From Eledone cirrhosa (lineage: Eukaryota): a stretch of DNA of 64,000 nucleotides. The notes beneath the pieces were generated by a model. The model made no database searches. It saw only the letters and a program-made list of their open reading frames with translations, and was not told where the DNA came from. Positions 2,094 to 56,518 of the stretch are shown in pieces. Where the stretch lies: the NCBI GenBank assembly GCA_964016885.1, contig OZ024741.1:86056001-86120000 (forward strand), in the 5' to 3' direction. Position numbers and translations under genes: made by a program. The stretch's first letter is position 1; each line of letters starts with the position of its first letter.

Positions 2094-2722
2094 CCGCGGA
2101 CGAAACAAAGAGGAGTGCTCGCATTCTCGTCCACGAGGTGAATTTGACTTTAACTTTGGCATTTTCGCTCTGGGCGTCCAGATTTTTCTCTCCCTTCCAC
2201 TCTCCAGGATTCCGCAGTCCGTCCGTCCATCCATCCATCCATCATATATCGAAGGCAACCGGGCAAGCGATAGTATAGGCCTCTGGCTTATGATTTGGTC
2301 CGCGTAATAATAATAATGGTGATGCGTGGGGGTGGGGGTGGGGGGCTCTGGCTTATAATAATGGTGGTGATGCGGGGGGGGCTCTGGCTTATGATTGGTC
2401 CACGTATTAAGTATGGTGGCGTGTGGGGGCGGGAGGGAGGGGTGTGGGGTAGCTAGCTGGAAGGTTATGAATGTTTAACAAGCGATTTAACAAAAAGCAA
2501 AACTGCAAGATTTGTTCTGTTCAATACAACAAAAACACCGTATTTAAACCTTAAATAGATAACAAAAAAATACAGATTTCGGATTTTGCGAGATTGGATG
2601 TTTGTTTGGACTATGTACGGAATTGAGCGTGGAAATGGAGAGAAGAATTTGTACTTTACGATTTACATGAGTCCATCATAGAAATAATTGAAGCAGCGGT
2701 GGATTGGCGAAAGTGAATAAAC
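1..2722 (-). mobile_element. RTE-clade LINE, 5' part with ~630-bp 5'UTR, running off the left window edge
   Basis: Minus strand reads APE endonuclease then RT. The 5'UTR has repeated CTCTGGCTTATGATT(T)GGTCC units (2281, 2382) and abuts a (TA)n tract at ~2722. Confidence 0.93.
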
Positions 2723-2760
2723 ATATATATATATATATACATACATATATATATATATAT

Positions 2761-2833
<73 letters not shown>

Positions 2834-2852
2834 CATACATATATATATATAT

Positions 2853-2887
<35 letters not shown>

Positions 2888-2910
2888 CATACATACATAT
2901 ATATATATAT

Positions 2911-2943
<33 letters not shown>

Positions 2944-3000
2944 CATACATACATACATATATATATATATATACATACATACATACATATATATATATAC

Positions 3001-3033
<33 letters not shown>

Positions 3034-3034
3034 C

Positions 3035-3099
<65 letters not shown>

Positions 3100-3120
3100 C
3101 ATACATATATATATATATAT

Positions 3121-3179
<59 letters not shown>

Positions 3180-3224
3180 CATACATACATACATATATAT
3201 ATATATACATACATACATATATAT

Positions 3225-3255
<31 letters not shown>

Positions 3256-3308
3256 CATACATACATATATATATATATACATACATACATATATATATAT
3301 ATACATAC

Positions 3309-3345
<37 letters not shown>

Positions 3346-3444
3346 CATACATATATATATATATATACATACATATATATATATATATACATATATACAT
3401 ATACATACATATATATATATATATACATACATATATATATATAT

Positions 3445-3491
<47 letters not shown>

Positions 3492-3500
3492 CATATATAC

Positions 3501-3536
<36 letters not shown>

Positions 3537-3550
3537 ATATATATACATAC

Positions 3551-3603
<53 letters not shown>

Positions 3604-3816
3604 CATATATACATATACATACATATATATATATATATACATACATATATATATATATATATACATATATACATATACATACATATATATATATACATAC
3701 ATATATATATATACATACATATATATATATATATATATACATATATACATATACATACATATATATATATATATATACATACATATATACATATACATAC
3801 ATATATATATATATAT

Positions 3817-3847
<31 letters not shown>

Positions 3848-3848
3848 C
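2722..3848. repeat. Compound (TA)n/(TACA)n microsatellite, ~1.1 kb
   Basis: Seen directly in the sequence. Confidence 0.98.
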
Positions 3849-5219
3849 CCATGGGAACTCCTATACGCAGACGACCTGACACTCATAGCGGAATCAATGG
3901 CCGAGCTAGAGAAGAAATTCCAAACATGGAAGCACGGCCTAGAGTCAAAAGGACTTAAAATTAACCTGGCTAAGACCAAAGTACTAGTTTGTAGGAAAGA
4001 AAACAAGGCGGCGGTCCCTTCTGGGAAATGGTCGTGCTCGGTGTGTAGGAAAGGCGTAGGTAGAAACTCCATTTTATGTCCTAAATGCAAAGTATGGGTG
4101 CATAAAAGATGTAGTGGGATCACAGGTAAGCTAACTAAGAACATAGATTTTACATGTGGCCGGTGCTCTGGTGCAATAAGTAGCAGCAAGTGCCCACAAA
4201 CTACTAGCTCTTTCAATTGCGCAGAGGGTTCTATAGAAATAGTGGACAGCTTCCGTTACCTGGGCGATAAAATCAGCAGTGGGGGAGGGTGCTCTGAAAG
4301 TACTGTAGCTAGAGTCAGAACTGGTTGGAAAAAGTTCAGAGAGCTTATACCACTATTAGCTGCTAAAGGGTTCTCACTAAAAATGAAAGGCAGGTTGTAC
4401 GATGCCTGCATACGAACAGCAATGCTGCATGGCAGTGAGACCTGGGCATTGTGTGCAGAGGATATACGCAGACTAGAGAGGAACGAAGCTTGCATGCTCC
4501 GCTGGATGTGTAACAGTAATATACGTGAACGGCAAAGCATAAACGAACTAAGGAAAAAATTAGAGATAAGAGGGATCAGATGTTGTTTACTCGAGAGAAG
4601 GCTACGTTGGTATGGACACGTGATGCGCATGAAAGTCGATAGCTGTATAACAAAGTGCAGGGCAATAAAGATAGACGGTAGTCACGGAATAGGCAGACCT
4701 AGAAAAACCTGGGACGAGCTGATAAACTCCGACATCACACACTTACACCTCTCCAAGACAATGTCACTGGACCGAGACCTTTGGCGGTACTCAGTAACAG
4801 AGAAGACCCGCCTTACCTAAATATATAGTAAAACCTACTCCAGCCAGTAGGCATCTCTAACAAAATACACCCCGTCCCACCACCACCACCCCCACCCGAT
4901 CCACACCACCCCGTTCTATGTAAAGTTATGTTGGTGCCGCGCCATCGAGGCCGAAACAAATGAGATCGTGTAGGTGTCACGACAAAAAAACACACAGTCC
5001 ACGCTGTAATGTGGCCGTGTAGGCAACACGGTAAAAACCTCCCAGACCCACACTGTAAATGTGGTTGGTGTTAGGAAGGGCATCCAACTGTAGAAAACCT
5101 GCTAGACAGTCCTATGCGAGCAAGACAATCACTCTTGCCTCAAGTGGGACTACCCCCGTCCAAACCCATGCAAGCGTGGAACACGGACGTTAAACGTTGA
5201 TGATGATGATGATGATGAT
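3849..5219 (+). mobile_element. 5'-truncated RTE LINE (RT C-terminal half, 3'UTR, (GAT)n tail)
   Basis: Starts at [10 protein letters not shown]; ORF 3897-4820 includes FRYLG and [11 protein letters not shown]; 3'UTR motif GGTTGGTGTTAGGAAGGGCATCC; (GAT)n tail at ~5198-5219; flanked by (TA)n. Confidence 0.93.
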
Positions 5220-5271
5220 ACATATATACATATACATACATATATATATACATATATATACATATATACAT

Positions 5272-5309
<38 letters not shown>

Positions 5310-5313
<4 letters not shown>

Positions 5314-5530
5314 AAACTTTTTTCGCTCTACATGGCTGAATACAATTCGTTTGCAATTATGCAAACAAGCCTCAATTTTATAGCCATGTCAGTAGAATGA
5401 ACCCACCATTCATGCCAACACAAGAGCAAGAATGAAGGGTTCATTCTACTGACATGGCTATAAAATTGAGGCTTGTTTGCATAATTGCAAACGAATCGAA
5501 TGTTATTAATATTTGAAAAACTCAGATTAT
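5310..5530. repeat. PLE-terminus family fragment with ~59-bp perfect inverted repeat
   Basis: 5346-5404 is the reverse complement of 5437-5495. Same family as 30890-31015 and 59520-59680. Confidence 0.7.
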
Positions 5531-5719
5531 ATATATATACAGTTTCAGCCATCCGGCTGAGGCCGTGCTGGGGCACCGCCCTTGTTGCTACATATTTTAT
5601 CGCCAGCCTGCATTGGTTGGCCACTGGTGCAAGAAGGAGTTTGTTGCTTCTGCCCTTAGTATTGTTAGTTGTGGGGTGGGCCAAGGGGGTGGGGCGGTGA
5701 AAAGGAGGAGTGTTAGTGG

Positions 5720-6605
5720 TGTTTGTGGGGGATGTGTGGGAGGTCGAAGGCTAAAGGAATAGGGGTGGGGAGTTCAGGCCGCGGGGGGGGGGGAGTCTGT
5801 AGGGTGAAGATGGTGCGTTGTTCGAGCGTGAGGGGGGTGGCGGGTGTTCCATGGCATTGGAGTAGGCCACAGACTGTGAGGTAGTGAGCGGAATGTCAAG
5901 GGGAGCCAAAGTGGCAGGCGATGGGGGAACTGCCACTGAGACGAATATCCCGGAGGTGTTCAGTGAAACGGTCCGCCAGGTGACGCCCAGGTTGGCATAG
6001 TTTGGACCCATTCTTGTGCTCATGGCTACCCCTGTGACCTGTTGGTAAAACTCACCCGACGAGAAGCAGTTGAGGGTGAGGACCAGCTCGGCGAGGCAAA
6101 GGAGGGGGGGGGGGTGGAAGAGATGGGGGAGGGGCGAAGGTCGAGGTAGTGCCGGAGTGCACGTAGGCCATCGGCGTAGGGGATGACAGTATAGAGGGAC
6201 TTGATATCTAGGGTGAAGAGGATGGGGTGTGGGCCAGGTGGGAAAGTGAGGGAGTCGAACAGGCGAAGGGTGTGGTTGGTGTCAGAGATGTGAGAGGGAA
6301 AGGTGGTGACGAGGGAGGCGAGGATAGAGTCAAGAAAAGCAGGTGCAAGCTGAGACAATAGGGCGGCCGGGGTTGTCGGGTTTGTGGCATTTGGGGAGGA
6401 AGTAGATAGTGTGGGTGCAGACGATGAGGTGGGAAGCGGTGGGAGGGAGGAAGGAGGAGGAGATAAGGTGTTGGATGGTGGAGGAAACTTGTTGTTGGTA
6501 GAGCGGTGTGGTGAGTGTAGAGGGCTATAGAAGAGGGGGTTACGGAGCTGCCTGAGAGCTTCGGCCGCCACACCACCACGGCGCCTCCCTTGTCCGCCGG
6601 TTTGA
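5720..6605 (-). pseudogene. Penelope-like element RT plus GIY-YIG C-terminus, internally deleted and frameshifted
   Basis: TLDIKSLYTVIP, ELVLTLNCF, QQVTGVAMSTRMGPNYANL, then VARHF...H...EQRTIFTLQT..PRGLN across frames. Confidence 0.85.
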
Positions 6606-6655
6606 TGACGATTCAACTTGGATTGCCTCGGAAACATAACCTTATTATGTAACAA

Positions 6656-6729
6656 GCTGTCTGATGATGTCACGACACTCGCACACAGAACAGTGTGGCC
6701 AGTGTCGTCATTGAAATATATATCACAGC
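6656..6729 (+). ncRNA. Type I hammerhead ribozyme (copy 1)
   Basis: GCTGT / CTGATGA / helix II (ACGACACT..AGTGTCGT with inner CACAC..GTGTG) / GAAA / TATATA / TC / ACAGC. Helix I GCTGT:ACAGC is perfect. Confidence 0.85.
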
Positions 6730-7920
6730 ATTATTATTAAAGGACTTGAACATCTGAAACTACTTCGCTTTTACTTATTCGATATTTACTCCGTCACTCC
6801 TATGTGGAAAAAGTACGTTGAGTGCTTGAATTGAATTGCATCAATGTTTACCCTAAGAATTTAGCTCCAATTAGTTGAGCGCTCTATGATGTAACCGATA
6901 TGGTGGAGAAGAGAGGAACCAACCATGAGCTACCCCTGGAAATTCCCTCTACCATGGGGATGGAAACCCCTGACACTGGACGGACATAATAGTAACTTTC
7001 GGCAGGATAAATACGCGGAAACAAAAACTAAGATAAACCCATATTTTCCTGCACCAAATCGTTTTTGAACAGAAGCCCCCTCAATTCAATCTATACATTG
7101 ACAAATTGACAATCATATGGATCATTTTGCATATATGTACTGTGTTTTTGCATTTATTCATTATTGGTTCTTTTCTTTTGTGTACTTTATATCTGTTTTC
7201 CTTTGGTTTTGTTCCATGTGATGGAAATTATGACTGTGTACCAGATTGACTACTGCCTTGAATACTGTAGTTTACCCTCCGTTCTAATGTACGGCACTAT
7301 CGTTCAATATGTGGATAGTGTAACTGTGACATTGGAACCCCTCTCAGAACTTCTTACTTAAACATCTCTCTCCATATTATTTACTCACTTCAATCTATGT
7401 TTTTTTACTCACCTCAATCCGGATTCACTTGAAAAATTTTTTAATTTCTAATTTTTGATTTAGGATTTTAATTTTTATTTCCAACTCTCACTCATAACTT
7501 CCAATGTAAAACCATGATACCTAGAATTAAGTATATTTTCTCTTGGGAGTTGATGGTCAGTCGTACTGTCCATGCTTGGTGAGAGGTAGTATTGTGACCT
7601 GTAAAAACTAACACTCTCCCATCCCCTCTGGCTTTCGGCTGACTGCCACAGACGGGACGGGTAGCAGTAAACTATGGTACAGGCCTAAATGGGTCATTGT
7701 TTGGCTGAGAGGGTGAACTGACTAAGCGAATTTCGTTGAAATCGGCGGTAGCTAATGGTCAACTTCCTTCGGACATACGCCTGCACAGAGCTGGGGGGGG
7801 GGGGGGGGGGGGGGGGGGTACTCACGGGAACTGATGAAGAACCCAAAAGCACACACTTCGTCCGTTCCCATGTGGATTCAACTTGGATTGCCTCGGAAAC
7901 ATAACCTTATTGTGTAACAA

Positions 7921-7994
7921 GCTGTCTGATGATGTCACGACACTCGCACACAGAACAGTGTGGCCAGTGTCGTCATTGAAATATATATCACAGC
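7921..7994 (+). ncRNA. Type I hammerhead ribozyme (copy 2)
   Basis: Identical to 6656-6729. Confidence 0.85.
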
Positions 7995-8054
7995 ATTATT
8001 ATTAAAGGACTTGAACATCTGAAACTACTTCGCTTTTACTTATTCTATATACAT

Positions 8055-8107
<53 letters not shown>

Positions 8108-8159
8108 CATATACATATTTATATATATATACATATTTATATATATATACATATTTATA

Positions 8160-10155
8160 GACCCTATAGAGGGACCAGCAGTACAAGTCAGCGGCAGCGT
8201 AGTAAGTAAGGCAATCAGAGATATGAAGATAGGGAAGGCAACCGGTCCATCGGGTATAGCTGCCGAGATGCTGAAGGCATCTGGGTCTGTAGGTCACACT
8301 ATAACCACACGTATCGTTAACCAGGTAATACTAGAGGGGGCCATACCAAAAGATTGGTGCAGTAGCATCATTGTCAACTGCTACAAAGGTAAAGGCGATG
8401 CACTAGATAGAGGAAACTATAGAGGTATAAAGTTGATGGACCAGGTCATGAAAGTAACAGAAAGAGTTATAGCACAGCTGATTAGGGACCGGGTGAATAT
8501 AGACGAGATGCAATTTGGGTTTGTACCAGGGAAAGGCACCACTGATGCGCTCTTCCTTGTGAGGCAATTACAGGAAAAGTACCTAGCTAAAAGTAAGCCA
8601 CTCTACTTGGCATTTGTCGACCTTGAGAAAGCCTTTGACAGAGTTCCACGTGCAGTAATCTGGTGGGCTCTTAGAAAACTAGGAGTAGATGAATGGCTTG
8701 TGAAAGCGGTACAAGCCATGTATAGGGGAGCAGTCAGCAAAGTTAGGATTGGCAATGAGTATAGCGAGGAATTTAGCGTACAGGTTGGGGTCCACCAGGG
8801 CTCTGTTCTTAGCCCTCTCCTGTTCATCATAGTCCTGCAGGCAATAACGGAGGAGTTTAAGACCGGATGCCCATGGGAACTCCTGTATGCTGATGACCTC
8901 GCACTCATAGCTGAATCTATGGTAGAACTAGAGAATAAATTCCAAACCTGGAAGCAGGGACTAGAGAGAAGGGGCCTCAAAGTCAACATGACAAAGACTA
9001 AGGTCCTTATAAGTAGACGAGAAAACAGAACCCAGATCCCCTCAGGGAAATGGCCTTGCTCAGTATGTAGGAAAGGTGTAGGTAGGAACTCCATTCTTTG
9101 CCCCAAATGCAAACAATGGGTACACAAGAGATGTAGCGGGATCTCAGGAAGCTTAATTAAGAATGTAGGATTCACATGCAGCAGCTGTGCTGAAACAGCA
9201 AGCAAACAGCCACAGGAAACAAGTACCACCAATCTCTGGGAGGGCCCTGTAGAAACAGTAGACAGCTTCTGCTACCTAGGTGACCGAATTAGCAACGGAG
9301 GTGGGTGCTCAGAAAGTACAATAACTAGGGTAAGAACGGGATGGAAGAAGTTTAGGGAACTACTACCACTGCTAGCTGCAAAAGGCTTCTCCCTCAGAAT
9401 GAAAGGCAGACTGTATGATGCGTGTATCCGAACAGCGATGTTGCATGGTAGTGAGACCTGGGCGCTGAAGGTGGAAGACTTACGTAGATTAGAGAGAAAC
9501 GAAGCCTGCATGCTCCGATGGATGTGTAACAGTAATATACGTGAACGACAAAGCATAAAGGAATTGAGAGAGAGACTGAGCATAAGAGGAATCAAATGCT
9601 GCGTGCAGGAGAGGCGGTTACGCTGGTATGGACATGTGATGCGTATGAAGGATGACAGCTGCATAAAAAGGTGCAGAGCACTAGAAGTTGATGGAAACCG
9701 CGGAGTGGGGAGACCCAAGATGACTTGGGATGAGGTGATAAAAGCCGACCTTACCCAACTACACCTCTCAAAGTCAATGACACACGACCGTGACTTCTGG
9801 CGTCACGCAGTAATACAGGGTACCCGACCTCCCATGGGTACATGCTGAAGCATATAAACAATATGCCTCCCCCCCCCCCCCACCGCAAGGTGGTCGTGGA
9901 GGTGCCACGGCAAAAAAGCACCCAGCCCACACTGTAAAGTGGACGTGTAGGCGCCACGAAAAAGCACCCAGCACTCACTGTAAATGAGGTTGGTGTTAGG
10001 AAGGGCATCCAGCTGTAGAAATCAAGCCAGATCAGTTCCTGTATGAGCAAGGCATGGTCAGCCGACCAGACACTGCCCACAACAGGACAACCCGTCTAAC
10101 CCATGCTAGCGTGGAAGAACGGACGTAAAACGGTGATGATGATGATGATGATGAT
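8160..10155 (+). mobile_element. 5'-truncated RTE LINE with uninterrupted RT ORF, 3'UTR and (GAT)n tail
   Basis: ORF 8223-9848; 3'UTR similar to the 3849-5219 copy; flanked by (TA)n. Confidence 0.95.
8223..9848 (+). CDS. RTE reverse transcriptase (541 aa, no endonuclease), with internal Cys/His finger
   Basis: KATGPSG, NYRGIKL, QFGF, FVDLEKAFDRV, GVHQGSVLSP, LYADD, FCYLG. Confidence 0.92.
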   Translation: MKIGKATGPSGIAAEMLKASGSVGHTITTRIVNQVILEGAIPKDWCSSIIVNCYKGKGDALDRGNYRGIKLMDQVMKVTERVIAQLIRDRVNIDEMQFGFVPGKGTTDALFLVRQLQEKYLAKSKPLYLAFVDLEKAFDRVPRAVIWWALRKLGVDEWLVKAVQAMYRGAVSKVRIGNEYSEEFSVQVGVHQGSVLSPLLFIIVLQAITEEFKTGCPWELLYADDLALIAESMVELENKFQTWKQGLERRGLKVNMTKTKVLISRRENRTQIPSGKWPCSVCRKGVGRNSILCPKCKQWVHKRCSGISGSLIKNVGFTCSSCAETASKQPQETSTTNLWEGPVETVDSFCYLGDRISNGGGCSESTITRVRTGWKKFRELLPLLAAKGFSLRMKGRLYDACIRTAMLHGSETWALKVEDLRRLERNEACMLRWMCNSNIRERQSIKELRERLSIRGIKCCVQERRLRWYGHVMRMKDDSCIKRCRALEVDGNRGVGRPKMTWDEVIKADLTQLHLSKSMTHDRDFWRHAVIQGTRPPMGTC

Positions 10156-54960: not shown

Positions 54961-55099
54961 GACTAAAATCCAAAGAGGCCTCGATAAGGATAAATATATA
55001 TAAGAACGGTAGAGCAAATATTTATTAAAATAACAGATTAAAGTTTAAGCAAAGAATCGCTGCTTTCACCCTTAACGGGATCTTCTGAAATATATATAT

Positions 55100-56489
55100 T
55101 TAGGTTTGTTGGTTCACCCCCCCCCCTTATATACTTATCCTTGTACTCATTAGTGCATGACCCTAGAATATTACTCTCTGTACCCTTATATCTGTTCATC
55201 TTTATTCACTCCCCTTACCCACTCAAGATTCACACTACGTATAACCCGGACTAACTGGGGACTAACTATAGTCTATTGACACATTTCATCAGATTTTGCC
55301 ACTTTTAAACTTCACATCACGGGTGTGAATAATTAATAATCGTTTGGTACACACGATGATCCGACGGATATGGCAGCTTTCCCGACTGCACGCCAGGCGC
55401 TCGGGTCGATCAGCTTTCATAAAATGCTTGGAAAAATTAAATTTCCCCTTCTTTCGGTAAACGAATATACTCGGAACGGCTGTTTCGCCCTGGGGCCCTG
55501 TCAGACTTGGAATACGCCATGCAACCGGGTATTGACCGCCAAACAGTACCTTTAAATTCTAGGCTTAATCATAACTTTTAACTTTATCATGCCTCCTTCT
55601 ACTAGCACTCAACTAAATTCCCCAACAGTGTGAATAACTAGTAATCGCTAGGTATATACGATAGCCAGCTGACGGTGGCGGACTTCCCGCTAGCACACCC
55701 GGCGCTTAAAACAGTTAACATTCCTGGAGTGCTTGGAAAAATAAATTTCCCTTTCTTTCGCTAGACGAAAATACTCGGAACGGTTGACACGCCGTTGGGC
55801 CCCGGGCTGGCCGGGGGGTCTGCAACGTCACTGGTTAATGTCCGCTAAGCATGGGCTTAATCTTTACTCCATATTCCACCCTGAAACTTTATCGTGACTA
55901 TATATGATACACTTATACTTTTTCTTAAAAGCCTCCTTCTGTAAATTCTTTAACTTAACTCCCAACCTTAAACCTAAATGTTACTTTTCTAATTTCCTCT
56001 TAAATGGCATCTTTTAACTCTAAACTTAAATTTAACGTTTCTAATTGCTAATCGTAATTTCTGACCATACAATGTACTGTGCTGACGCCATATATATAGC
56101 TTTGTTAAGGAAATATCTTTTTTGGGAAAAATATTTTTCGTGGCACTTTCTAGCACTCCTGACCAGCTTGAATGTAACCTGATCTCACCGCTGGCCTCTG
56201 TCTTTGACAGGGTGGTAGTAGTACACTATAAGCCTACGCCCCTCCACCACAAGGACATAAGTAGACTTAATAATCATCACTTGAGGGCGGTTGACCGGGC
56301 TAGTAGCTGCTAAATGGTCGGCCGCCCTCATGTCTCTGATTTCAGCACCATGGATTTTGTCTATTATATTCCTTTGTTATATTTCGAATACCTGATGATG
56401 TCACCGGATTCATACTGAACCCGGTCACTGAAATGATCATAGTATAATAAACCTTTTAAGGAATTACACTAGTCCAGCCACCTGTTATT

Positions 56490-56490
<1 letters not shown>
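55100..56490 (+). mobile_element. Non-coding structured element ending in an HHR, related to 6610-8045
   Basis: HHR with the same TGTCAC..GTCAYT helix-II base; shared GGTAGYAGTAMACTAT motif; bounded by TA-rich tracts. The 5' boundary is uncertain. Confidence 0.65.
56388..56445 (+). ncRNA. Type I hammerhead ribozyme
   Basis: ATAC-CTGATGA-TGTCACCGG..CCGGTCACT-GAAA-TGATCA-TA-GTAT. Confidence 0.82.

Positions 56491-56518
<28 letters not shown>

What the first reader, a model, noticed from the sequence alone, without database searches (positions are those of the whole stretch)
56120..56490. Two dissimilar elements share one ordered RNA architecture upstream of a distinctive HHR subtype
Seen: 7540-8045 and 56120-56490 do not align overall but share, in order, a CCTCTG-led hairpin, GGTAG(C/T)AGTA(A/C)ACTAT (7660-7675 vs 56214-56229, 14/16 identical), a long GAGGG..TGAC..GCTAA(A)TGGTC stem, a CCATG..GATT motif, and an HHR whose helix II opens TGTCAC and closes GTCA(T/C)T with a six-base palindromic helix III (TATATA vs TGATCA). 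Inference: an old, diversified family of non-coding HHR retroelements conserved at the level of structure.
Basis: partly seen in the sequence, partly recalled or inferred. Interest (0 to 1): 0.72.

Follow-up and report, generated by a model that had tools for sequence, protein, structure and literature searches.

The report
Non-coding Penelope-type hammerhead retroelements
These two stretches are the end parts of two distantly related, protein-less jumping repeats that carry a hammerhead motif predicted to cut RNA and that sit in the genome with the footprint of Penelope-like retrotransposons, whose enzymes they likely borrow; this is a known kind of element, so the finding is largely ordinary.

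Summary
The hammerhead (HHR) motif is not chance: 3 copies in the window against 0 in shuffles, and 2,904 in the 3.0-Gb genome against 0 for the reversed pattern.

The two "elements" are only the 3' parts of larger non-coding repeats:
- el1 has a 1,265-nt unit, present here as a partial tandem (6605-8045).
- el2 has a unit of about 2.1 kb, present here as a 5'-truncated copy (55097-56497).

Both families show the insertion signature of Penelope-like elements (PLEs):
- pseudo-LTR partial tandems;
- head-to-head inverted 5'-truncated copies;
- two discrete 3' ends (short, or with a "tail");
- insertion into (TA)n.

The HHR is the known PLE kind: type I, long helix II, an extra U after A9, and a 1-bp helix III with a self-complementary loop.

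Outside the HHR, only two blocks are shared above chance:
- the 16-mer GGTAGYAGTAMACTAT, at marginal profile E-values;
- a block at the start of the tail (ACTCCGT).

The other listed motifs and a common secondary structure are not supported. Alifold covariation terms are about zero, and whole-unit similarity equals shuffles.

I found no RT ORF in either unit and no autonomous partner with this HHR. Other notes of this scan describe similar PLE hitchhikers elsewhere in this genome.

The parts
6605..6785 (+). el1 upstream partial copy (pseudo-LTR): 5'-truncated copy holding HHR copy 1 and the 56 nt after its cut site
   Evidence: 181-nt direct repeat, 98% identical to 7870-8050, spacing 1265
6656..6729 (+). 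el1 HHR copy 1 (helix I GCTGT/ACAGC, core CTGATGA..GAAA, loop 3 TATATA). The predicted cut lies between 6724 and 6725
   Evidence: pattern match at 6661-6716; anatomy read from the sequence
6781..6863 (+). Start of the el1 unit. In other loci the same sequence forms the optional 3' 'tail'. It contains ACTCCGT at 6789-6795
   Evidence: copies L009, L021, L026/27 and L028 run on past the short end into this sequence and then stop at a simple repeat
6786..8045 (+). el1 full unit (non-coding), ending at the short 3' end next to (TA)n
   Evidence: units of 1,321-1,322 nt in tandem arrays in L038; no RT similarity
7660..7675 (+). M1 block GGTAGCAGTAAACTAT (el1)
7793..7818 (+). 26-nt poly-G private to this copy; relatives have GGTGGGGGTGAATTGGG here
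7921..7994 (+). el1 HHR copy 2. The predicted cut lies between 7989 and 7990, so 6725-7989 is a predicted 1,265-nt self-cleaved monomer
55097..55118 (-). 22-nt inverted copy of the end of the el2 tail, joined to the sense copy through the 6-nt microhomology TTCACC, next to a short (TA)n
   Evidence: reverse complement of ggtgaaccaacaaacctaaata, seen at the tail ends of L001, L005, L007 and L025
55113..56497 (+). el2 5'-truncated sense copy (non-coding). It contains an internal duplication, 55323-55498 against 55628-55802
   Evidence: 88-96% identity to 19 genomic copies across 55091/55125-56497; 676 candidate copies of 55760-56130
56214..56229 (+). M1 block GGTAGTAGTACACTAT (el2)
56283..56329 (+). 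Long hairpin GAGGGCGG..CCGCCCTC, 63-109 nt upstream of the HHR core
   Evidence: predicted in the MFE and centroid folds
56388..56445 (+). el2 HHR (helix I ATAC/GTAT, loop 3 TGATCA). The predicted cut lies between 56441 and 56442
56442..56497 (+). 56 nt from the cut site to the short 3' end, which abuts (TA)n from 56498
   Evidence: fixed 3' end at 56497 in every el2-type copy that BLAST matched; 10 of 22 sampled el2 copies have the short end
5751..6612 (-). Degraded fragment of an older, GC-rich autonomous PLE (RT N-terminal part: KPADKGG, FTLDIKSLYT, FYQQVTGVAMS). It abuts the el1 partial copy head to head. It is not part of el1
   Evidence: ORF pieces; family of at least 150 scored copies; full copies carry a different HHR

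Best explanation
Both stretches are the 3' parts of two non-coding repeat families. Their units are about 1.27 kb and 2.1 kb, and together they account for at least 2,904 hammerhead-motif copies in this genome. They lie in (TA)n tracts with the partial-tandem, inverted-copy and two-alternative-ends layout of Penelope-like elements (PLEs). They are likely copied in trans by a PLE reverse transcriptase/endonuclease, and the hammerhead is predicted to cut multimeric transcripts as a dimer.

**Shown**
- Copy number and the extents of the units.
- Lack of an ORF in either unit.
- Fixed 3' ends with variable 5' truncation.
- Head-to-head inverted copies.
- A short 3' end 56 nt after the predicted cut, or a longer end with an 83-nt (el1) or roughly 135-nt (el2) tail.
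- Flanking simple repeats.
- An intact HHR core with compatible helices I and II and a self-complementary loop 3.

**Inferred**
- A multimeric or partial-tandem transcript is bound by a PLE protein.
- The GIY-YIG endonuclease nicks AT-rich or (TA)n DNA.
- Reverse transcription starts internally at one of two sites. This gives the short and the tail-bearing ends, as shown in vitro for a lizard PLE (PMC11167929).
- It often stops early, which gives 5' truncation, and a second cDNA primed on the other DNA end gives the inverted partner.

**Relation between the two families**
- The families share the HHR, the M1 16-mer upstream, and ACTCCGT at the start of the tail.
- This is most simply residual homology of a common pseudo-LTR. 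These blocks may have been kept because they serve in cis, but that is untested.
For: **Abundance**
- HHR motif: 3 in the window against 0 in 100 shuffles. In the genome, 1,461 + 1,443 matches against 0 + 0 for the reversed pattern.

**Layout in the window**
- Partial tandem: 181-nt repeat at 98% identity, spacing 1265.
- The window el2 copy starts with a 22-nt inverted tail end joined at a 6-nt microhomology.

**Layout in other loci**
- L038 holds arrays of 1,321-1,322-nt units on both strands.
- The el2 unit of about 2.1 kb is seen in L049, L054 and L059.
- Fixed 3' ends at 56497 and 8045 with scattered 5' ends.
- 3' ends of the 30 sampled copies: el2 has 10 short and 12 with tail; the el1 superfamily has 4 short, 3 with tail and 1 other. 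28 of the 30 show a simple repeat of 10 nt or more at one of these two ends; L023 has only a short TA run there and L012 is the inverted hairpin.
- Among the first 100 places listed, 8 head-to-head (-/+) HHR pairs lie within 1.7 kb and no tail-to-tail pair does. Inverted partners are also seen.

**Non-coding**
- Longest ORFs are 143 aa and 83 aa. tblastn with a PLE ORF gives E >= 3. No tRNA-like part.

**HHR fold**
- el2 type: 95.3% of 510 cells paired in 35 copies. Three pairs changed on both sides (18 of 500 shuffles reach this), in 4 cells (3 of 500).
- Between families, helix I, distal helix II and loop 3 differ in sequence but keep pairing or self-complementarity: GCTGT/ACAGC, ATAC/GTAT, ACAC/GTGT; TATATA, TATGTA, TGATCA, TGTGCA.

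**Published match**
- PLE HHRs have a long helix II, a 4-5-bp helix I, an extra nucleotide after position 9 and a palindromic loop 3. Close opposite-strand pairs 100-700 bp apart are described (PMC4209133, parts 1-2 read).
- pLTR, inverted 5'-truncated copy, tail and (TA)n bias (PMC8557442, passages read).
- Two internal RT start sites define the tail (PMC11167929, main text read).
- Animal retrozymes are described as PLE derivatives (bioRxiv 10.64898/2026.07.22.740005, abstract and section 14 read).

**Possible source of enzymes**
- Autonomous PLEs abound in the same genome.
Against: **No partner found**
- No autonomous element with this HHR type was found. I looked at about 110 loci out of 2,904 HHR copies.
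- The young PLE-A shows no BLAST similarity to either unit.
- PLE-B carries a different, canonical minimal HHR.
- The enzyme donor is therefore unidentified.

**HHR doubts**
- Rfam hammerhead models do not match, either at gathering score or at E <= 10.
- The base of helix II departs from the published G10.1-C11.1 rule: a U.U mismatch sits next to the core, followed by G:U or G:C.
- Covariation within the el1 superfamily HHR is not above shuffles: 2 pairs, reached by 220 of 500 shuffles.
- Loop 3 is not self-complementary in 8 of 35 el2 copies (TGTTCA).

**No expression data**
- No RNA data are at hand, so transcription, cleavage and circles are all untested.
Confidence: 0.78

Rival explanations
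1. One reading: an old family whose upstream RNA architecture (hairpin, M1, long stem, CCATG..GATT, HHR) is kept by selection on structure rather than on sequence.
For: - M1 recurs in el1, el2 and two deeper subfamilies, L028 and L036.
- A profile of the el1 superfamily has its best non-self hit in the whole window exactly at the el2 hairpin plus M1 (56197-56235, E 0.051; the next hit is E 1.2).
- The reciprocal profile finds M1 of L036 (E 0.0087; the best of 700 decoys scores 2.4 bits against 4.3).
- Both RNAs are predicted to form a long hairpin between M1 and the HHR.
- The el2 region folds better than shuffles: z -2.93, with 1 of 200 shuffles as good.
Against: - No common structure emerges. 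Alifold gives a covariation term of +0.91 for the el1 superfamily. The joint fold has only 14 pairs, at -4.84 kcal/mol.
- The el1 fold is not better than shuffles: z -1.15, 15 of 100 as good.
- Which el1 hairpin corresponds to the el2 hairpin is ambiguous.
- GCTAA and CCTCTG are not kept in L028, L036 or L037.
- The long pre-HHR profile finds nothing significant on el2 (best + strand hit E 1.6).
- Global alignment and k-mer chains equal shuffles.
Confidence: 0.15
2. [quoted passage not shown] This would give the tandem and palindromic arrays.
For: - Two identical HHRs in the same orientation flank a full unit in the window (6661-6716 and 7926-7981).
- L038 holds arrays of three or more units on each strand, forming a palindrome.
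- Loop 3 is self-complementary, which suits dimeric cleavage of multimers.
- The model is proposed in PMC4209133 (discussion read) and for metazoan retrozymes in PMC7229834 (abstract in the search listing only).
Against: - No RNA evidence was obtainable.
- Most copies are single and 5'-truncated, with one HHR.
- In the only PLE tested in vitro, HHR mutants did not change insertion, and RNA-seq reads did not start or end at the cut site (PMC11167929, main text read).
- The units are several times longer than the metazoan retrozymes I recall (about 170-400 nt; recalled, not checked here).
Confidence: 0.2
3. These are not separate non-autonomous families but internally deleted or truncated pieces of an autonomous PLE that I did not sample.
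For: - Only about 110 of 2,904 HHR loci were inspected.
- Published surveys find that only a few HHR copies per genome map in full PLEs (PMC4209133, part 2 read).
- A PLE RT fragment abuts the el1 partial copy in the window (5751-6612).
Against: - Unit length is constant and ORF-free in independent loci. el1 has units of 1,265 nt and 1,321-1,322 nt. el2 has a unit of about 2.1 kb in L049, L054 and L059.
- 19 of 19 long el2 copies are collinear with the window copy.
- The adjoining RT fragment belongs to a family whose full copies carry another HHR.
Confidence: 0.1

Closest known systems
Insertions of endonuclease-bearing Penelope-like elements (Neptune/Nematis/Penelope-Poseidon types) and their pseudo-LTR hammerheads
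   Same: - Partial tandems that form pseudo-LTRs.
- An inverted 5'-truncated copy at the 5' side.
- An optional tail at the end.
- (TA)n target bias.
- A type I HHR with long helix II, short helix I, an extra nucleotide after A9 and a palindromic loop 3 (PMC8557442 passages; PMC4209133 parts 1-2; PMC11167929 main text).
   Different: - No RT/GIY-YIG ORF in the unit.
- Tails are 83 nt and about 135 nt, not the 30-40 nt described.
- A U.U mismatch lies between the core and the first G:Y pair of helix II, instead of G10.1-C11.1 directly next to the core.
Metazoan non-LTR retrozymes, described as non-autonomous PLE derivatives (PMC7229834, abstract only; bioRxiv 10.64898/2026.07.22.740005, abstract and section 14)
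   Same: - Non-coding.
- Type I HHR.
- Tandem arrays.
- Co-occurrence with PLEs.
- Similarity confined to the pLTR-like part.
   Different: - Units of 1.27-2.1 kb, against the few hundred nt that I recall for retrozymes.
- Most copies here are dispersed, 5'-truncated singletons in microsatellites.
- Circular RNA is not shown.
Non-autonomous Chlamys elements such as MRC1 of Chlamydomonas (PMC8557442, passage read)
   Same: Protein-less PLE hitchhikers that form pLTRs and head-to-tail multicopy insertions.
   Different: - Those share 3'-end sequence with an identified autonomous family and lack canonical HHRs.
- Here an HHR is present and no autonomous relative is identified.
Plant LTR retrozymes (PMC4918200, search listing and abstract only)
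   Same: A non-coding body of about 1 kb between two HHR-bearing direct repeats.
   Different: - Those have type III HHRs in true LTRs, with PBS/PPT, and are mobilised by Ty3-gypsy enzymes.
- None of these features is seen here.

Membership tests
Hammerhead ribozyme, type I, PLE variety | Conserved core: C3-U4-G5-A6-N7-G8-A9, G12-A13-A14, A15.1-U16.1, H17 | tested here: met
   - el1: CTGATGA..GAAA-TATATA-T-C.
- el2: CTGATGA..GAAA-TGATCA-T-A.
- Read directly from the sequence. The same form is seen in the 69 instances collected (61 after removal of duplicates). Note that the search pattern itself fixed both core boxes.
Hammerhead ribozyme, type I, PLE variety | Helices I and II base-paired, with helix I open (type I) | tested here: met
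   - 95.3% of cells paired in 35 el2-type copies.
- 89.3% of cells paired in 15 el1-superfamily copies.
- Slid controls give 12-59%.
- Covariation is weak within families but clear between families.
Hammerhead ribozyme, type I, PLE variety | Extra nucleotide between A9 and 10.1, and a G10.1-C11.1 pair (PMC4209133 discussion) | tested here: inconclusive
   - The extra U after A9 is present.
- The next G pairs with U (31 of 34 distinct copies) or C (3 of 34). An unpaired U precedes G12, so the pair is displaced by a U.U mismatch.
Hammerhead ribozyme, type I, PLE variety | Short helix III with a palindromic loop, allowing a dimer | tested here: met
   - TATATA and TGATCA are palindromes.
- TATGTA and TGTGCA are self-complementary with a G.U pair.
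- TGTTCA, in 8 of 35 el2 copies, has a central U.U mismatch.
Hammerhead ribozyme, type I, PLE variety | Match to the Rfam hammerhead covariance models | tested here: not met
   No hammerhead family at gathering score in the window, nor at E <= 10 on either region. This is expected for a 1-bp helix III but is still a miss.
Hammerhead ribozyme, type I, PLE variety | Self-cleavage | not testable with these tools
   No RNA run is listed for this sequence. A bench assay is needed.
Penelope-like element (autonomous) | Single ORF with a telomerase-like RT and a GIY-YIG endonuclease | tested here: not met
   Longest ORFs are 83 aa (el1 unit) and 143 aa (el2 unit). tblastn with the 777-aa PLE ORF gives E >= 3.
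PLE-type insertion (autonomous or hitchhiker) | Pseudo-LTR from a partial tandem; inverted 5'-truncated copy; optional tail; microsatellite or AT-rich target | tested here: met
   In addition, 8 head-to-head pairs against 0 tail-to-tail pairs.
Metazoan non-LTR retrozyme | Tandem non-coding repeats, each with a type I HHR, expressed as circular RNA | tested here: inconclusive
   Tandem arrays are present (L038). Circular RNA could not be tested. Unit size is larger than I recall for this family.
SINE (pol III, tRNA-derived head) | tRNA-like 5' part | tested here: not met
   ARAGORN finds no tRNA-like gene anywhere in the window.

The most novel reading that the evidence does not exclude
Two otherwise unalignable protein-less PLE hitchhikers keep only three blocks in common:
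- a small stem-loop 16-mer, about 180-270 nt upstream of the HHR;
- the hammerhead itself;
- ACTCCGT, 61-64 nt after the cut, exactly where the optional tail begins.

These blocks would be the minimal cis-code that a Penelope-like RT/endonuclease reads to start reverse transcription and to be hijacked in trans. The families would be driven by an autonomous PLE that shares none of their HHR or end sequence.
Probability: 0.18. Interest if true: 0.55.

Novelty: new member of a known kind. Interest (0 to 1): 0.27.

Why it matters
The finding gives a correct annotation for two abundant repeat families: non-autonomous Penelope-type elements, rather than a new RNA class.

It also provides a natural experiment. 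The two families have diverged until only the ribozyme, one upstream 16-mer and the first bases of the tail remain alike. Both families show the same two discrete 3' ends that in vitro work on one lizard PLE ascribes to two internal RT start sites.

This narrows where to look for the cis-signals of PLE mobilisation. Beyond that the finding is ordinary. PLE-type hammerheads, their insertion footprint and protein-less derivatives are all in print, and other notes of this scan report similar hitchhikers in the same genome.

Tried and rejected
**Rfam**
- Nothing for hammerhead at gathering score or at E <= 10.

**Search for an autonomous partner**
- L031-L040 upstream flanks: only unrelated LINE or PLE ORFs.
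- Same-strand HHRs 5.3 kb apart (L091/L093): separate insertions, and the nearby RT ORF belongs to another tandem element.
- PLE-A (L034, 777 aa): its pLTR has no TGTCAC HHR and no BLAST similarity to el1 or el2.
- PLE-B (the family of the window fragment): no such HHR within 1.5 kb of the RT core in 11 loci. A full copy, L106, carries CTGAGGA-A-GGGC..GCCC-GAAA-CG-TC instead.

**Pfam**
- No family at E <= 0.01 for the 777-aa PLE ORF or for the window fragments.

**Expression**
- No RNA holder is listed.
- Contigs of three runs of unknown kind from one sample were laid. They cannot show RNA ends or strand. They only show that the last 160 nt or so of el2 has about 100-200 times the summed word depth of the body. 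This fits many short 3' stubs if the runs are DNA.

**Whole-unit homology**
- BLAST with word size 7, long profiles and collinear 8- and 9-mer chains are all at chance level outside the HHR, M1 and tail blocks.

**Ideas rejected**
- SINE idea: no tRNA-like part.
- My early idea that the minus-strand RT fragment at 5751-6612 is the inverted arm of the same insertion. It lacks a 3' end and belongs to a family with another HHR.

**Not run**
RNAalifold on MAFFT alignments was used instead.
- No covariance model was built.
Full report
**1. What is at the coordinates.**
I read both regions. None of 100 dinucleotide shuffles gave a match.

All three are type I hammerheads by direct reading:
- el1: helix I GCTGT/ACAGC (7921-7925 with 7990-7994), core CTGATGA, helix II, GAAA. 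Then A15.1:U16.1 closes the 6-nt loop TATATA. H17 is C7989.
- el2: helix I ATAC/GTAT (56388-56391 with 56442-56445), loop TGATCA, and H17 is A56441.

"Opens TGTCAC, closes GTCAYT" is correct. Read antiparallel it gives U.U, G:Y, U:A, C.C, A:U, C:G, which is four pairs and two conserved mismatches. It is followed by 3+3 further pairs in el2 and by a long rod in el1. The six-base palindrome is the loop of a 1-bp helix III, not a helix.

Rfam finds no hammerhead at gathering score or at E <= 10.

**2. The elements are larger than reported.**
- **el1.** 6605-6785 and 7870-8050 are a 181-nt direct repeat, 98% identical, 1,265 nt apart. This is a 5'-truncated upstream copy followed by a full unit, which is the pseudo-LTR layout. 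Elsewhere the unit stands in arrays with a period of 1,321-1,322 nt on both strands (L038).
- **el2.** The window copy runs from about 55097 to 56497. Nineteen other genomic copies are collinear with it over 55091/55125-56497 at 88-96% identity. The piece 55760-56130 alone has 676 candidate copies, of which 40 were scored, giving 42 matches. Three loci (L049, L054, L059) show the full unit of about 2.1 kb between two HHRs.
- **No coding capacity.** Neither unit encodes anything RT-like. The longest stop-to-stop ORFs are 83 aa and 143 aa, tblastn with a PLE ORF gives E >= 3, and there is no tRNA-like part.

**3. Abundance and insertion signature.**
The own genome (2,995,841,428 bases) holds 1,461 + 1,443 exact pattern matches, against 0 + 0 for the reversed pattern.

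In the first 30 loci, 22 are el2-type and 8 belong to an el1 superfamily that includes a third helix II subtype. The features are:
- **3' ends are fixed and 5' ends scattered**.
- **3' ends fall at two discrete places.** One is 56 nt after the predicted cut (the window copies end at 8045 and 56497). The other follows a further 83 nt (el1) or about 135 nt (el2). Counts for el2 are 10 short and 12 long. For the el1 superfamily they are 4 short, 3 long and 1 inverted hairpin. A simple repeat of 10 nt or more, mostly (TA)n, stands at one of these two ends in 28 of the 30; L023 has only a short TA run there and L012 is the inverted hairpin.
- **Head-to-head inverted partners are frequent**. Among the first 100 places listed there are 8 -/+ pairs within 1.7 kb and no +/- pair.
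- **The window el2 copy begins with a 22-nt inverted copy of the tail end** (55097-55118), joined through the microhomology TTCACC.

These are the published hallmarks of Penelope-like-element insertions:
- pLTR, inverted 5'-truncated copy, tail, and (TA)n bias in Neptune and Naiad (PMC8557442, passages read);
- two internal RT start sites that bound the tail (PMC11167929, main text read).

The HHR also fits the published PLE type. That type has a long helix II, a 4-5-bp helix I, an extra nucleotide after position 9 and a palindromic loop 3. Opposite-strand pairs 100-700 bp apart are described, and most copies are single and truncated (PMC4209133, parts 1-2 read). The one departure is at the base of helix II, where the published rule is G10.1-C11.1.

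**4. Is the shared upstream architecture real?**
- **M1 is real.** The 16-mer occurs twice in the window against 0.03 expected. The genome holds 579 copies against 13 for the control, and all 100 listed are one of the two family versions. It also occurs, slightly changed, in the deeper subfamilies L028 and L036.
- **Profiles point to M1.** A profile of nine el1-superfamily sequences, searched over the whole window, has its best non-self hit at 56197-56235. This is the el2 hairpin plus M1, at E 0.051, with the next hit at E 1.2. The reciprocal el2 profile finds only M1 of L036, at E 0.0087 and 4.3 bits. The best of 700 decoys scores 2.4 bits.
- **Pairwise alignment is marginal.** The best local alignment covers the same block: 30 against 22 +/- 3, reached by 12 of 500 shuffles. 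The global score is reached by 354 of 500 shuffles.
- **The other motifs fail.**
  - The GCTAA of GCTAA(A)TGGTC is private to el1 proper. Deeper relatives read GTTGATGGTC or GTGGATGGTC. CCTCTG becomes CCACTG or CCACTA.
The correspondence is therefore ambiguous.
- **No common structure is shown.** Alifold gives -10.64 kcal/mol with covariation +0.91 for the el1 superfamily, and -4.84 with -0.08 for the joint set. Single-sequence folds give z -2.93 for el2 and z -1.15 for el1, the latter distorted by a private 26-nt poly-G.
- **Whole units are at chance level** for BLAST and k-mer chains.
The tail begins with ACTCCGT 61-64 nt after the cut in el1, el2 and the deeper subfamilies that have tails. 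A tail profile of el1 hits the el2 tail at E 0.021.

**5. HHR fold support.**
- el2 type, 35 copies: 95.3% of cells paired. Three pairs changed on both sides (18 of 500 shuffles), in 4 cells (3 of 500). Slid controls give 16-38%.
- el1 superfamily, 15 copies: 89.3% paired. Two compensatory pairs, not above shuffles (220 of 500).
- The search pattern fixed both core boxes, so only the inner helix II, helix I and loop 3 could vary.
- Between families these parts are replaced while pairing is kept. This is the best support available here.
- Cleavage itself is untested.

**6. Who moves them?**
The genome holds at least two autonomous PLE lineages.
- **PLE-A** (L034).
  - It has a 777-aa ORF with RT, a C-x4-C-xx-C motif and GIY-YIG.
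  - It is very young and abundant: 150 of 150 scored EN-domain matches are 99-100% identical, out of 22,550 candidates, and many have intact 777-aa frames.
  - It also ends in simple repeats at a short or a roughly 37-nt longer end.
  - It shares no detectable sequence with el1 or el2, and I saw no TGTCAC-type HHR in its pLTR.
- **PLE-B.**
  - This is the family of the degraded minus-strand fragment at 5751-6612.
  - It is older: 67-85% identity in 150 scored of 7,231 candidates.
  - In a full copy it carries a canonical minimal HHR in both pLTRs.
- **No ORF-bearing unit with the TGTCAC HHR was found** in the loci I inspected. The driver remains open. PLE-A is the better candidate only by its target and end signature, which is an inference.

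**7. Verdict.**
These are two diverged families of non-autonomous, Penelope-type HHR elements, which is a known kind. The relevant papers are PMC4209133, PMC8557442, PMC7229834 (abstract only) and bioRxiv 10.64898/2026.07.22.740005.

Earlier AI notes of this scan describe similar protein-less PLE hitchhikers and HHR communities in (TA)n elsewhere in this genome.

What remains of interest is modest. Only three short blocks have been kept between the two families, and each lies where PLE biology would place a cis-signal.

Noticed in passing
L034:266-5300 (G000:C1, about 92.68 Mb); not in the window: A very young, very abundant autonomous Penelope-like element with a 777-aa ORF. All 150 scored EN-domain matches are 99-100% identical, out of 22,550 candidates, and many have intact 777-aa frames. 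It carries a long internal (TG/TA)n tract in its 3' UTR and ends in (TA)n at a short or a roughly 37-nt longer end.
   Followed up: partly
window 5751-6612 (-): A frameshifted, GC-rich PLE RT fragment (KPADKGG, FTLDIKSLYT, FYQQVTGVAMS) abuts the el1 partial copy head to head. Its family has at least 150 scored copies (7,231 candidates) at 67-85% identity. A full copy (L106) has 294-nt pLTRs, 4,891 nt apart, each with a canonical minimal HHR (CTGAGGA-A-GGGC..GCCC-GAAA-CG-TC).
   Followed up: partly
window 7916-8003 and relatives (alignment A3): RNAalifold prefers an alternative 9-bp pairing between the 5' core box (TGATGATGT) and the sequence just after helix I (GCATTATCA). This pairing excludes the active hammerhead fold. 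It may be a competing inactive conformation or only a thermodynamic artefact.
   Followed up: no
window 56335-56497: In contigs of three runs of unknown kind from one sample, the last 160 nt or so of el2 has about 100-200 times the summed word depth of the rest of the element. Many contigs diverge just upstream of 56340, at the 3' foot of the long hairpin. This would fit cDNA synthesis often stopping at that hairpin.
   Followed up: no
window 56279-56295 equivalents in L004, L008, L010, L015, L017, L018, L024: Seven of 22 sampled el2 copies start within 17 nt of each other, at the 5' foot of the GAGGGCGG hairpin. This could mark an RNA 5' end (a transcription start about 55-70 nt downstream of M1) or a preferred template-switch point.
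   Followed up: no
window 55323-55498 and 55628-55802: An internal duplication within el2, 72-76% identical, which is present in all long copies examined.
   Followed up: no
window 7793-7818: A 26-nt poly-G run private to this el1 copy. Relatives read GGTGGGGGTGAATTGGG at this place.
   Followed up: partly
window 2721-4820 (+) and 7980-9848 (+): Two copies of a LINE-type RT ORF with a PHD-like zinc finger ([18 protein letters not shown]..). Each emerges from a long TA-rich microsatellite. The two are about 74% identical over 300 nt (4185-4484 against 9201-9500).
   Followed up: no
L034:5772-5814 (-): A different HHR-like motif (CTGATGAG..GAAA-TATATA) lies inside a short inverted-repeat element. 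It suggests further hammerhead families in the same genome.
   Followed up: no
L093:1806-3683, 4120-8106 and 8543-9901 (+): A tandem retroelement with a period of about 4.4 kb and an ORF of up to 1,329 aa. The ORF is only 20-24% identical to the PLE RT. The element was not classified.
   Followed up: no
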